Made by a program: the position numbers and the translations under genes. The notes under the pieces were generated by a model. The model was not told the origin of the DNA, did no database searches, and saw only the letters and a list, made by a program, of their open reading frames with translations. From an archaeon (lineage in GTDB: Archaea > Nanobdellota > Nanobdellia > SCGC-AAA011-G17 > GW2011-AR20): a stretch of 52,310 bases of DNA. The stretch covers positions 1 to 52,310 of the forward strand of contig NZCT01000030.1 of NCBI GenBank assembly GCA_002688355.1, given 5' to 3'. Of the stretch, positions 35,095 to 44,023 are shown piece by piece (positions within the stretch are counted from its first letter, which is position 1; each line of letters opens with the position of its first letter).

Positions 35095-35399
35095 ACTTCA
35101 ATCAAAAAGTATACAACCTCTGTAAAAAAATACCAAAAGGTCGTGTAAGTACGTACAAAGAAATAGCAAACAAACTAAAAACTAAAGCTTACAGAGCAGT
35201 TGGCCAAGCTCTAAGAAATAATCCAAACGCTCCAATAATTCCGTGCCATAGAGTCATTTCATCTTCTGGAAATATTTATGGATTTAAAGGAAAATTAAAA
35301 GGTACTCCAATCAAACAAAAAATAGAATTATTAAAAAAAGAAGGTATTCAAATAAATAATAACAAAATAGAATTAACTAAGTTTTTACATAAATTTTAA
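35091..35399 (+). CDS. ogt: methylated-DNA-protein-cysteine methyltransferase (MGMT), C-terminal domain only
   Basis: KIPKGRVSTYKEIA, RAVGQAL..NP..IIPCHRV. Confidence 0.93.
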   Translation: MNFNQKVYNLCKKIPKGRVSTYKEIANKLKTKAYRAVGQALRNNPNAPIIPCHRVISSSGNIYGFKGKLKGTPIKQKIELLKKEGIQINNNKIELTKFLHKF

Positions 35400-35427
35400 A
35401 AAAAAAAATAAAAGTAGAATTATAATA

Positions 35428-35649
35428 TTATCTTCTTCTTCTAGCTGAGGATGCTCTTGATGCTCGTCTTCTTGTTGTAGAAGCTCTTGCACTTGAAGCT
35501 CTTCTTCTAGTAGTAGAAGCTCTAGCACTTGATGCTCTTCTTCTAGTAGTAGAAGCTCTAGCACTTGATGCTCTTCTTCTTGTAGAAGATGCTCTGGATC
35601 TAGAAGATCTTGCTCTTGAAGCGGATGCCGCTCTTCTTCTTGCTGCCAT
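35428..35649 (-). CDS. 73-aa protamine-like Arg/Ser/Ala-rich protein
   Basis: ATG 35649 with GAGGTGA 8 nt upstream, TATA-like motif near 35710-35717, oligo-T after stop; only M/A/R/S/T residues, 27 Arg. Confidence 0.8.
   Translation of the reverse strand: MAARRRAASASRARSSRSRASSTRRRASSARASTTRRRASSARASTTRRRASSARASTTRRRASRASSARRRR
35468..35595 (-). repeat. 36-nt coding tandem repeat (RRRASSARASTT), about 3.5 copies
   Basis: Plus-strand unit gcacttga(a/t)gctcttcttctagtagtagaagctcta at 35489 and 35525, with partial copies either side. Confidence 0.9.
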
Positions 35650-35727
35650 TCTTTTTTTCACCTCTTTATGTTTTTAATAAATATATAACGATATAAATGC
35701 AGAACCAGTATTTAAACCTATTGTTTT

Positions 35728-36084
35728 TTATTCTATAAATCTCTTACTATGTTTTTCTGGAGTCTCTTTCTGATGTCTCTTAAAATATAACCACATAGCT
35801 TCCGAACCATTTTCTCTTGGCTCCAAGTCACGAATTAATCTTTTAAATTTAACTTGAACCTCTTCACCACTTTGATAAACATCAGTTCTATTCTCTACAA
35901 GGGTAATTTTTCCACCAAGATCATAAACATCAACCATATCAAAAAAATATCCTAAAGCTTCATTAACAACTTCCTCGGGATTTCGAACACCTGTTTTTTT
36001 AACTATATTTTCTAATCTTTTTTTTCCTTCTTCTGTAAATCTTACTCTAAGTTCATATCCAGATTTATCTTCTTCTTTTATCAT
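35728..36084 (-). CDS. ribbon-helix-helix-like hypothetical protein
   Basis: ELRVRFTEEGKKRLENIVKKTG...EVVNEALGYF; paralog of the next ORF. Confidence 0.6.
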   Translation of the reverse strand: MIKEEDKSGYELRVRFTEEGKKRLENIVKKTGVRNPEEVVNEALGYFFDMVDVYDLGGKITLVENRTDVYQSGEEVQVKFKRLIRDLEPRENGSEAMWLYFKRHQKETPEKHSKRFIE

Positions 36085-36100
36085 AGTTCTCTAATAAATC

Positions 36101-36364
36101 TCATTTATCATAATCTTTTCCAAGATGCTTTTTTAGATATAACCAAAAAAATTCAGGAATATCATCAGTAGGCTCAATATATCTCATTTTACCATTATCT
36201 TCAGTTAGAAGTTTCCTACCTTTTTCATAAAAATCCATATGGCTTTTCAAATAACCAATTGCTAAATCTACAACATTTCCAGGCATAGTAGCACCTAATC
36301 TTTCAGTCATTTCTTCAAGATTTTCCAAAGATTTTCCATCAAATACAACTTTTAGTTCTTCCAT
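36101..36364 (-). CDS. ribbon-helix-helix-like hypothetical protein
   Basis: ELKVVFDGKSLENLEEMTERLG...NVVDLAIGYL; shared WLY.K.H tail. Confidence 0.6.
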   Translation of the reverse strand: MEELKVVFDGKSLENLEEMTERLGATMPGNVVDLAIGYLKSHMDFYEKGRKLLTEDNGKMRYIEPTDDIPEFFWLYLKKHLGKDYDK

Positions 36365-41553: not shown

Positions 41554-41600
41554 AGAAACAAAATGTTTTTAAACAGTTTTATTAGTAAAAATAATACAAA

Positions 41601-41708
41601 ATGAAAAGAAGCTCTAGACGTTGGAAGAAAAAAGGCCAAATGAGATGGAAATGGCAAAAGAAAAGAATGAGAAAGGAAAAGAGAAGAAAGAGAAAAGCTA
41701 AGAGTTAG
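41601..41708 (+). CDS. rpl41e: ribosomal protein eL41 (eS32), not in the ORF track
   Basis: MKRSSRRWKKKGQMRWKWQKKRMRKEKRRKRKAKS matches the archaeal MRWKW.KKR pattern. Confidence 0.85.
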   Translation: MKRSSRRWKKKGQMRWKWQKKRMRKEKRRKRKAKS

Positions 41709-43513: not shown

Positions 43514-44023
43514 ATGGATGATATAAATAAAAATAAGGGTAATCAAGCTGAAAAGAAATTTAAAGAATGGCTAGATCTTCATAACATCCCTTACTTATAC
43601 ATTCAACAAGATACAAAAACATTTTCTCCTTCTCTAAATAAATATTTTGGATCAAAAAGACCAGATTTCATGATTCTTATTCCAAATCTGGGATTTATTT
43701 TTATCGATATAAAATACAGAAAAATAAATGAAACATACAAAAGTTTTCCACTAGATAGCATAGAAACTAGAAAATATTCTGTTCTACAAAGAAAATTCAA
43801 CTTACAAATATGGTATGTTCTATCAAATAACACCTATGGATACAAAACCTGGTTCTGGATTAACGTATCAAAAGTTTTAGAAGAGGGAAGAAATCCAAAA
43901 TTTACATCTGGAAAATCAAGCATGGATTTCTTTGCAATACCAATAACAGATTTTATTCAAATAGCAACAAATGATTCACTAGATAGATTATTTTCCAAAA
44001 TTTTTGTAGAAGAATTAAAATAA
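43514..44023 (+). CDS. PD-(D/E)XK nuclease-like protein in the 16S-23S spacer
   Basis: KGNQAEKKF (alpha1 E), RPDF, FIDIKYR. Confidence 0.8.
   Translation: MDDINKNKGNQAEKKFKEWLDLHNIPYLYIQQDTKTFSPSLNKYFGSKRPDFMILIPNLGFIFIDIKYRKINETYKSFPLDSIETRKYSVLQRKFNLQIWYVLSNNTYGYKTWFWINVSKVLEEGRNPKFTSGKSSMDFFAIPITDFIQIATNDSLDRLFSKIFVEELK

What the first reader, a model, noticed from the sequence alone, without database searches (positions are those of the whole stretch)
35428..35720. Protamine-like Arg/Ser/Ala repeat protein with its own promoter, strong SD and terminator
Seen: 73 aa, 27 Arg, no acidic, aromatic or large hydrophobic residues, built from RRRASSARASTT repeats; Arg mostly AGA, as in host genes; GAGGTGA SD, TATA motif and oligo-T terminator. 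Known: Arg clusters interspersed with Ser typify protamines, and bacterial analogs such as Chlamydia Hc2 condense the nucleoid in dormant forms. Inference: an undescribed DNA-condensing or RNA-binding protein for an ultra-small archaeal cell, possibly controlled by Ser/Thr phosphorylation.
Basis: partly seen in the sequence, partly recalled or inferred. Interest (0 to 1): 0.78.

Follow-up and report, generated by a model that had tools for sequence, protein, structure and literature searches.

The report
Protamine-like mini-protein family in DPANN archaea
The 73-residue Arg/Ser/Ala/Thr open reading frame is a real gene, and it is an unusually long member of an apparently undescribed family of tiny, extremely basic peptides found in Woesearchaeota and Pacearchaeota, whose composition suggests they coat and neutralise DNA or RNA, although no experiment has yet tested this.

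Summary
There is a 73-aa ORF on the minus strand at 35428-35649 (27 R, 19 S, 19 A, 7 T, 1 M). It has a GAGGTGA Shine-Dalgarno, a TTTAAATA box at -67 and a T4-A-T11 tail. It is not an orphan. DNA-pattern scans of GTDB species genomes recovered about 16 mini-genes of 14-77 aa, all in Woesearchaeota, Pacearchaeota or Nanoarchaeia MAGs. They begin MA[A/K/S/E]RRR and nearly all end in a run of Arg, and 99.8% of their residues are R, K, S, T, A or G. Most have their own TATA-like box and nearly all an oligo-T tail (the SD was required by the search pattern). Positional orthologs persist where flanking proteins are only 40-76% identical. The peptides change by in-frame indels and Ser/Thr swaps but stay within the six-residue alphabet (about 2e-11 by chance). 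Pfam, NCBIfam and PDB sequences give no significant match, and literature searches found no description. Composition (41% R, 32% S+T) closely matches baculovirus P6.9. The best reading is an abundant, non-specific nucleic-acid polycation, probably acting on the nucleoid beside histones. Ribosome or RNA binding is a serious rival. DNA condensation and phospho-control remain untested.

The parts
35428..35649 (-). Coding sequence of the 73-aa polycationic mini-protein (MAARRRAASASRARSSRSRASST[RRRASSARASTT]x3RRRASRASSARRRR*). It is 8.08 kDa, has pI about 12 and net charge about +26.5.
   Evidence: A gene was called on three contigs.
35456..35595 (-). In-frame 36-bp (12-codon) tandem repeat, 3.9 copies. 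It expands the protein to two or three times the usual family length.
   Evidence: TRF result. The unit differences are all at third codon positions and synonymous in this frame.
35659..35665 (-). Shine-Dalgarno sequence GAGGTGA, 9 nt upstream of the ATG.
   Evidence: It is complementary to the 16S 3' end. About half of the 11 non-rRNA GAGGTG hexamers in the window lie a few to about 13 nt upstream of an ATG or GTG.
35709..35716 (-). Archaeal TATA-box-like element TTTAAATA at -67. A second candidate, TTTATATC, lies at -48.
   Evidence: 11 of 17 family members have a match of at least 7/8 at -75..-40, against 13% of control positions.
35398..35413 (-). Oligo-T tract (T4-A-T11) after the stop codon. 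It is a putative archaeal terminator, shared with the end of the convergent MGMT-like gene.
   Evidence: 15 of 17 members have a run of five or more T within 45 nt of the stop, against 21.5% of controls.

Best explanation
The ORF is a real, translated, monocistronic mini-gene. It is a repeat-expanded member of a conserved family of 14-77-aa polycationic peptides in Woesearchaeota and Pacearchaeota (class Nanoarchaeia). Members have the N-terminus MA[A/K/S/E]RRR, a body made only of R/K clusters separated by S, T, A or G, and usually a C-terminal Arg run. The inferred mechanism is as follows. The peptide has no hydrophobic core. It acts as a flexible or helix-prone cationic rod (+26 over 73 residues, with Arg spread evenly around any helix). 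It binds phosphate backbones electrostatically and without sequence specificity. It neutralises charge and compacts or bridges nucleic acid, most likely genomic DNA alongside the histones and Alba of these lineages. This is how protamines, baculovirus P6.9 and H1 tails work. Selection acts on charge density and on small or hydroxyl spacer residues, not on exact sequence. As a result, length drifts through in-frame repeat gain and loss. The RRxS/T motifs could allow charge tuning by phosphorylation, which is speculative. What is shown: the gene is real, the family exists, composition is under selection, and the expression signals are present. What is inferred: the binding target and the compaction role.
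For: Family. The pattern GAGGTG-N4-11-ATG GCN GCN AGR AGR AGR GC gave 10 hits in 185,579 species genomes. Eight of them are Woese/Pace/Nanoarchaeota mini-ORFs of 20-37 aa. A relaxed pattern added members of 14-77 aa. The same motifs in viral contigs, and without the SD requirement, gave only unrelated ORFs.

Expression signals. Every member has a GAGGTG SD, although the search patterns required it. A TATA-like box is enriched (P about 1e-6) and an oligo-T tail is enriched (P about 9e-9).

Selection. Positional orthologs lie next to TatD, Rpp21 or Lgt, with flanking proteins 40-76% identical. Indels are in frame. All 43 aligned residue differences stay within R, K, S, T, A and G, although only 56% of random non-synonymous changes would (about 2e-11). 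Across 526 family residues there is one residue outside that set. Differences between repeat units are all synonymous, and AGA/CGA swaps preserve Arg.

Analogy. The family is 41% R and 32% S+T. P6.9 is 40% R, 31% S+T and has no Lys, and its DNA binding is reduced by phosphorylation.

Context hints. In L202 the gene lies 79 nt upstream of an archaeal histone gene. An Aenigmatarchaeota MC1 chromatin protein carries an MAKRRRAKRK tail.

Not a leader peptide. In 7 of 17 loci the downstream gene is convergent.
Against: There is no transcript, peptide or binding data. Most members are only 20-37 aa (+8 to +17), closer in size to tiny ribosomal proteins or ARM peptides than to protamines. These lineages already have histones and Alba. 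Only 1 of 17 loci is next to a chromatin gene, and many lie near translation genes, which is unsurprising in such small genomes. Nothing here separates DNA from RNA as the target. The search patterns required AGR codons and a strong SD, so the apparent restriction to low-GC Nanoarchaeia may partly reflect ascertainment. The AF2 single-helix model (pLDDT 95.5) comes from a single low-complexity sequence and shows helical propensity at most.
Confidence: 0.5

Rival explanations
1. A lineage-specific tiny ribosomal or other RNP-bound protein. The polybasic peptide threads into rRNA (or RNase P, SRP or tRNA) and stabilises it, like eL41/eS32, Thermus Thx or mycobacterial bS22 and bL37.
For: The typical family size of 20-37 aa, the conserved N- and C-termini, the strong SD and the gene's own promoter resemble tiny polybasic r-proteins. 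Several loci lie near translation genes: EF-1alpha, S10 and the rRNA operon in the window, Rpp21, L7Ae, S28e and L24e in L207 and L340, and aIF1A and a KH protein in L329.
Against: The middle region evolves quickly, with indels, Ser/Thr swaps and length from 14 to 77 aa. This is unlike r-proteins, which fit fixed rRNA pockets. There are no hydrophobic or aromatic anchor residues. The window already encodes a recognisable eL41/eS32, while the family gives no PDB ribosome match. Proximity to translation genes is expected by chance in reduced genomes.
Confidence: 0.25
2. An exported or host-directed polycation: a protamine-like antimicrobial or cell-penetrating peptide used by the episymbiont on its host or on competitors.
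For: Oligo-arginine and protamine are membrane-active and antimicrobial, which is established knowledge rather than something tested here. DPANN archaea depend on contact with a host. The family evolves rapidly and varies in length.
Against: There is no signal peptide or hydrophobic segment. There are no linked transporter or immunity genes, and the neighbours are housekeeping genes. The exact N-terminus is deeply conserved.
Confidence: 0.07
3. A regulatory mini-ORF whose translation matters rather than its product, for example a sensor of tRNA-Arg(UCU) or arginine supply, or a leader peptide.
For: It has 26 AGA codons in 73 and is a short ORF with a strong SD. A related-looking 13-aa poly-Lys ORF in L066, L067 and L071 is followed directly by a second ORF.
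Against: An oligo-T tail follows the stop in 15 of 17 loci, and the downstream gene is convergent in 7 of 17. AGA is the host's major Arg codon (82%), not a rare one. The spacer residues are tightly constrained, which a pure translation sensor would not need.
Confidence: 0.05
4. Not a gene. It is a purine-rich minisatellite or an antisense feature whose open frame is a by-product of composition.
For: Three of the six frames are open. The antisense frame a1 shares wobble positions, so three of the four differences between repeat units are also silent there. HMMER searches found no homologs.
Against: The antisense and +1 frames have no SD-linked start codon: the antisense frame has none at all, and the +1 frame has only an internal GTG ORF without an SD. 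The family-wide combination of ATG, SD, stop, TATA box and terminator on the sense strand, together with the positional orthologs and the compositional constraint, is incompatible with neutral DNA. AGA/CGA swaps are silent only in the Arg frame. There is no Rfam hit, and the RNA fold z-score is only -1.85.
Confidence: 0.03

Closest known systems
Baculovirus P6.9 (protamine-like core DNA-binding protein)
   Same: Composition is nearly identical. P6.9 is about 40% Arg, has no Lys and is 31% Ser+Thr (PMC12159748). The window protein is 37% R, 0 K and 36% S+T, and the family is 41% R and 32% S+T. Both are small, have poly-Arg clusters separated by hydroxyl residues, and lack a folded domain.
   Different: P6.9 is viral and packages a genome into a capsid, with known viral kinase and phosphatase partners. 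The archaeal family is cellular and Ala-rich, and its members can be as short as 14-24 aa. No Pfam family matched, so any relation is convergence.
Animal protamines and protamine-like sperm nuclear basic proteins
   Same: They share Arg clusters with Ser/Thr/Ala spacers, rapid sequence turnover with conserved charge, and an expected non-specific electrostatic mode of DNA binding.
   Different: True protamines are 50-70% Arg, often contain Pro or Cys, and are eukaryotic and sperm-specific. Here Arg is 37-50%, there is no Pro or Cys, and no homology was detected.
Bacterial developmental nucleoid condensers: Chlamydia Hc1/Hc2, Coxiella ScvA/Hq1
   Same: They are small, very basic, low-complexity DNA-binding proteins of small or dormant cell forms (for ScvA and Hq1). 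Hc2 is also built from repeats.
   Different: Hc2 is Lys/Ala-rich and about 200 aa. Matches to it are only compositional (Pfam HC2 12.5 bits against a cut-off of 40, NCBIfam 7.2 against 135). Nothing is known about developmental regulation of the archaeal family.
Tiny polybasic ribosomal proteins (eL41/eS32, Thx, bS22, bL37)
   Same: They are 20-40 aa, at least 50% basic, highly expressed, and often missed by annotation.
   Different: Those proteins are conserved in sequence and length and contain hydrophobic or aromatic residues. The window encodes its own eL41/eS32 at 41595-41705. The family has no PDB match.
Histone H1 and H3 tails, and Pseudomonas AlgP-type repeats
   Same: They are Ala/Lys/Arg/Ser/Thr-rich, disordered, charge-neutralising segments. 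L294 carries a 160-aa AAPKRRRRK-repeat protein of this style with the same MARRRR start.
   Different: Those segments are appended to folded domains. Here the tail is a free-standing gene product.

Membership tests
Protamine / protamine-like SNBP | Arg at least about 50% (protamine), or Arg+Lys 35-50 mol% (protamine-like), with few other residue types | tested here: met
   The window protein is 37% R+K and family members are 37-64%. This falls in the protamine-like range given in PMC12159748 and below true protamines.
Protamine / protamine-like SNBP | Sequence homology to protamine P1/P2 or to H1-derived protamine-like proteins | tested here: not met
   No Pfam family at E<=1 for the 73-aa protein. 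No NCBIfam family. No PDB sequence match.
Protamine / protamine-like SNBP | Condenses DNA into a compact, transcriptionally inert state | not testable with these tools
   This needs peptide and DNA biophysics or in vivo imaging.
Baculovirus P6.9 | About 40% Arg, no Lys, about 30% Ser+Thr, and poly-Arg segments separated by S/T | tested here: met
   Window protein: 37% R, 0 K, 36% S+T, six RRR clusters.
Baculovirus P6.9 | Homology or viral core-gene context, and phosphorylation-controlled DNA binding | tested here: not met
   No family hit. The context is cellular (EF-1alpha, rRNA). No viral relatives were found. Phosphorylation is not testable here.
Chlamydial Hc2 (PF07382 / NF038052) | Score at or above the curated cut-off of the family model | tested here: not met
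   The best score is 12.5 bits against 40 (Pfam, for the 77-aa relative) and 7.2 against 135 (NCBIfam). The window protein has no hit.
Ribosomal protein eL41/eS32 | Sequence similarity to eL41 chains of solved archaeal or eukaryotic ribosomes | tested here: not met
   A family member gave no PDB hits at E<=10. A different ORF in the window, 41595-41705, matches eL41/eS32 at E 8.7e-6.
Known archaeal chromatin proteins (histone fold, Alba, MC1, Cren7/Sul7) | Presence of the corresponding folded domain | tested here: not met
   Pfam found no domain. The same scans readily detect a histone (L202 neighbour) and MC1 (L348).
New 'MAARRR' mini-protein family (defined here) | SD-led ATG; N-terminus MA[AKSE]RRR; only R/K/S/T/A/G thereafter; usually a terminal basic run before the stop; own TATA box and oligo-T tail; Nanoarchaeia genomes | tested here: met
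   The window gene has all of these features. They are shared with 15 other members.

The most novel reading that the evidence does not exclude
Woesearchaeota and Pacearchaeota encode free-standing peptides that act like histone tails or as a polyamine substitute. These would be tunable polycations whose length evolves by in-frame repeat gain and loss. Reversible Ser/Thr phosphorylation at RRxS/T sites would switch the nucleoid (or the whole nucleic-acid pool) of these ultra-small cells between a condensed dispersal state and an active host-attached state. That would be a two-component chromatin of tail-less histones plus tails supplied in trans.
Probability: 0.12. Interest if true: 0.85.

Novelty: new variant of a known kind. 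Interest (0 to 1): 0.66.

Why it matters
If these peptides are expressed as their signals suggest, they are a class of abundant archaeal nucleic-acid-binding proteins that annotation cannot see. Most members are shorter than gene-caller minimum lengths. HMMER-based search tools return nothing for them, presumably because of their composition. Trypsin-based proteomics would cut them into very short fragments. They would add a protamine/P6.9-type solution to the known archaeal chromatin repertoire (histones, Alba, MC1, Cren7/Sul7). They would be a clear case of convergence between a virus, animal sperm and ultra-small symbiotic archaea. The family is also easy to test, because members of 20-24 aa can be made by peptide synthesis. 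The work also shows a practical way to find such families: codon-pattern scans combined with positional orthology.

Tried and rejected
1. Protein homology search with the 73-aa sequence collected 5528 word-sharing candidates, but none scored, not even the query itself, probably because of composition correction. For the same reason I did not spend the last large HMMER searches.
2. Exact-sequence cluster look-up of six members found none in the collection.
3. Synteny through EF-1alpha gave 80 Woesearchaeota loci. A compositional scan found no syntenic Arg-rich ORF, only off-frame noise; for example, the L022 hit is the alternative frame of an acidic protein.
4. The adjacent 118-aa gene is an orphan and could not serve as a synteny anchor.
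5. The exact repeat pattern had no match in GTDB genomes.
6. The single metagenome scan used too loose a pattern. It returned 120 mostly high-GC off-frame hits, and only L082 was useful.
7. A pattern without the SD requirement re-found three known members plus noise.
8. Viral contigs contain no family members.
9. Rfam gave nothing at the locus, and the RNA fold z-score of -1.85 is unconvincing.
10. The synonymous-site test within the repeats cannot by itself exclude the antisense frame that shares wobble positions. That frame was rejected because it has no start codon or SD.
11. The AF2 single-helix model was not used for fold searches because it is uninformative for a low-complexity sequence.
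12. tblastn with a histone and with Alba against the window found nothing significant.

Full report
OBSERVATION. The region holds a minus-strand ORF from ATG at 35649 to TAA at 35430-35428. It encodes 73 aa: MAARRRAASASRARSSRSRASST, then RRRASSARASTT three times, then RRRASRASSARRRR. The composition is 27 R, 19 S, 19 A, 7 T and 1 M. The mass is 8.08 kDa, the pI about 12 and the net charge about +26.5. 26 of the 27 Arg codons are AGA. AGA is also the host's main Arg codon, at 82% of 409 Arg codons in long ORFs. At the DNA level the body is a 36-bp tandem repeat of 3.9 copies with 91% matches. GAGGTGA lies 9 nt before the ATG and pairs with the 16S 3' end ...GATCACCTCC. About half of the 11 non-rRNA GAGGTG hexamers in the window lie a few to about 13 nt ahead of an ATG or GTG, so the motif appears to be used in this genome. 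TTTAAATA lies at -67 (35709-35716), and T4-A-T11 follows the stop (35398-13). One caution applies: three of the six frames are open here simply because the DNA is AGA-rich, so the open frame on its own proves little.

SOURCE. The window carries an archaeal 16S-23S operon. Its EF-1alpha is 71-80% identical to those of Woesearchaeota and Nanoarchaeia MAGs. GC content is 28.7%. The same 73-aa gene was called on three long contigs, including a 55-kb contig from a Tara Oceans marine metagenome.

FINDING RELATIVES. HMMER-based search returned nothing, not even the query itself. The flanking 118-aa gene is an orphan. EF-1alpha synteny found no counterpart. A loose codon pattern run on metagenomes was mostly noise, but it produced one groundwater contig from a 0.1-um filter fraction. 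That contig carries an SD-led 24-aa ORF, MAARRRASSARASRSSARRRARRT. I turned its start into the pattern GAGGTG-N4-11-ATG GCN GCN AGR AGR AGR GC and scanned one genome for each of 185,579 species. This gave 10 hits. Eight were mini-ORFs of 20-37 aa in Woesearchaeota, Pacearchaeota or Nanoarchaeia MAGs, and two were ordinary bacterial ORFs. The additions include 22-, 30- and 34-aa forms, two long ones of 55 aa and 77 aa, a 14-aa form on a complete 736,802-bp Woesearchaeota chromosome, and a 160-aa AAPKRRRRK-repeat protein with the same kind of start. The true number among species representatives is therefore probably several-fold higher; a rough capture-recapture figure is about 90. Two controls were negative. 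The same N-terminal motif without the SD re-found three members plus unrelated ORFs. In viral contigs both patterns gave only unrelated ORFs.

EVIDENCE THAT THE FAMILY IS A REAL, SELECTED GENE. First, the members share a common architecture. All have an SD-led ATG, although the search patterns required this. 11 of 17 have a match of at least 7/8 to TTTAWATA at -75 to -40, against 13% of control positions (P about 1e-6). 15 of 17 have a run of five or more T within 45 nt of the stop, against 21.5% of controls (P about 9e-9). Second, there is positional orthology in three groups. One group lies downstream of TatD (L211, L250, L257; flanking proteins 40-50% identical). One lies upstream of Rpp21 (L207, L340; flanks 70-72% identical). 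One lies downstream of Lgt (L203, L209; flank 76% identical). Third, the pattern of change points to selection on composition. Orthologs keep MAARRR at the start and a basic run at the end. They differ by in-frame indels and Ser/Thr/Ala/Lys/Arg swaps. Across 16 members and 526 residues the composition is R 40.9%, A 20.7%, T 17.1%, S 14.6%, K 5.3% and G 1.1%, with a single Glu. Only 56% of random non-synonymous single-base changes to these codons would stay inside that six-letter alphabet. All 43 aligned differences between positional orthologs do stay inside it, which is roughly 2e-11 by chance and a rough figure because the pairs are not independent. Fourth, the window's three full repeat units differ at four sites, all third codon positions and all silent in the Arg frame. 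The antisense frame that shares wobble positions is nearly as silent, but it has no start codon or SD. AGA/CGA exchanges, seen across the family, are silent only in the Arg frame. Fifth, the long members (window, L329, L322, L294) each carry their own different tandem repeats, with periods that are multiples of three. Length has therefore grown independently and in frame several times.

WHAT IT IS NOT. It has no Pfam or NCBIfam family and no similar PDB sequence. The only listed match is a sub-threshold compositional hit to chlamydial Hc2. It is not eL41/eS32, because a separate ORF at 41595-41705 matches archaeal eL41/eS32 chains at E 8.7e-6. It is not a leader peptide, because a terminator-like tail follows the stop and the next gene is convergent in 7 of 17 loci, including the window. 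It is not a known RNA, and its fold energy is unremarkable (z -1.85). Literature searches for arginine-rich or protamine-like proteins in DPANN, Woesearchaeota or Pacearchaeota, and for the motif itself, found no description.

HOW IT MOST LIKELY WORKS. This part is inferred. A peptide made only of Arg/Lys clusters separated by small or hydroxyl residues has no hydrophobic core and no specific recognition surface. AlphaFold gives one continuous helix (residues 2-72, pLDDT 95.5). I read that only as helical propensity. On a helical wheel the Arg residues point in all directions (mean resultant length 0.05). Helical or extended, the peptide is therefore a uniformly cationic rod. As a helix it would be about 11 nm long (73 residues at 0.15 nm rise each), or about three turns of B-DNA. 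Such molecules bind phosphate backbones electrostatically, neutralise charge, and bridge or condense nucleic acid. The closest analogue by composition is baculovirus P6.9, which is 40% Arg, has no Lys and is 31% Ser+Thr. Its poly-Arg segments anchor DNA, and its DNA binding is reduced by Ser/Thr phosphorylation (PMC12159748). Fast turnover of sequence and length with conserved charge is typical of protamine-like proteins and unlike ribosomal proteins. Woesearchaeota and Pacearchaeota have histones and Alba (PMC6136690). The peptide would therefore be an accessory linker or tail-like polycation rather than the sole chromatin protein. Two weak contextual hints fit this. One member lies 79 nt upstream of a histone gene. 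An Aenigmatarchaeota MC1 protein begins with MAKRRRAKRK. The four RRxS motifs in the window protein make phospho-tuning conceivable, but nothing here tests it.

RIVALS. The main rival is a tiny lineage-specific ribosomal or RNP protein. Typical members are 20-37 aa, their termini are conserved, and many loci lie near translation genes. I rate this at about 0.25 because the body of the peptide is too variable and has no anchoring residues. Export as a host-directed or antimicrobial polycation (0.07), a translation-sensing mini-ORF (0.05) and a non-coding repeat (0.03) are less likely, for the reasons given in their entries.

LIMITS. There is no expression or binding evidence. The search patterns required AGR codons and a strong SD, which biases discovery towards low-GC, SD-using lineages. 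One member (L210) has an in-frame upstream ATG that would fuse the basic segment to a hydrophobic 55-aa N-terminal extension, so its start is uncertain. The statistics on orthologs use overlapping pairs.

VERDICT. The main result is that this ORF is a repeat-expanded member of a conserved, apparently unannotated family of protamine/P6.9-like mini-proteins in Nanoarchaeia. I classify it as a new variant of a known kind (small polycationic nucleic-acid-condensing proteins) with no detectable homology to any described family.

Noticed in passing
window 41595-41705 (+): A 35-aa ORF, MKRSSRRWKKKGQMRWKWQKKRMRKEKRRKRKAKS, lies about 150 nt upstream of the 16S rRNA gene. It matches archaeal ribosomal protein eL41/eS32 chains (6skf_Bk, E 8.7e-6). 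It gave no Pfam or NCBIfam family hit and is short enough to be missed by annotation.
   Followed up: yes
window 35728-36084 (-) and 36101-36364 (-): Two small genes (118 and 87 aa) lie directly upstream of the mini-gene on the same strand. They look like paralogs with a ribbon-helix-helix-like N-terminus. The 118-aa protein has no relative in 5.8 billion proteins other than itself and only a weak sub-threshold HTH hit in Pfam.
   Followed up: partly
window 43514-44023 (+): A 169-aa ORF sits in the spacer between the 16S (ends 43322) and 23S (starts 44190) rRNA genes. It has no Pfam family. Whether it is a real gene, for example a mobile-element remnant, is unknown.
   Followed up: partly
L066 8817-8858, L067 8439-8480, L071 8722-8763 (all -): A 13-aa ORF, MAKKKKAxxKKKK, is conserved in three related Woesearchaeota about 1.5 kb from EF-1alpha. 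It has an AAGAGGTGA SD and a TATA-like box. A second SD and an acidic mini-ORF (MKLHLM.DWDD...) follow within about 15-20 nt. It may be a Lys version of the same idea, or a two-peptide operon.
   Followed up: partly
L294 2784-3266 (-): A 160-aa protein in an unclassified archaeal MAG is 65% Arg+Lys and is built from AAPKRRRRK-type repeats. It starts MARRRR with the same SD and resembles H1 tails or AlgP. No Pfam or NCBIfam family matched.
   Followed up: partly
L348 4764-5063 (-): An Aenigmatarchaeota MC1 chromatin protein (PF05854, E 1.5e-21) carries an N-terminal MAKRRRAKRK extension like the start of the mini-protein family.
   Followed up: partly
L202 5529-5747 (-): An archaeal histone gene (PF00808, E 1.2e-10) lies 79 nt downstream of, and on the same strand as, the 37-aa family member in a Rifle Woesearchaeota MAG.
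   Followed up: yes
L383 1430-1531, L365 2547-2669, L384 3600-3716, L373 2837-2944 (viral contigs): These are SD-led Arg-rich ORFs of 33-40 aa containing Phe, Tyr and Gly; three of the four end in ...GRRM or ...GSRM. They are a different family and may be small DNA-packaging proteins of small DNA phages.
   Followed up: no
L278 6158-6235 and 6452-6529 (+), Longirhabdus pacifica: Two tandem 25-aa ORFs, MAIRRRRLVRAARLLARLIRRRRNR and its near copy, are amphipathic Arg/Leu peptides unrelated to the archaeal family.
   Followed up: no
L210 802-1029 (-): In this member an in-frame upstream ATG would give a 75-aa protein with a hydrophobic, membrane-like N-terminal segment fused to the MAARRR... tail. 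The SD (GGAGGTGGAG) then lies inside that ORF, so the true start is uncertain.
   Followed up: no
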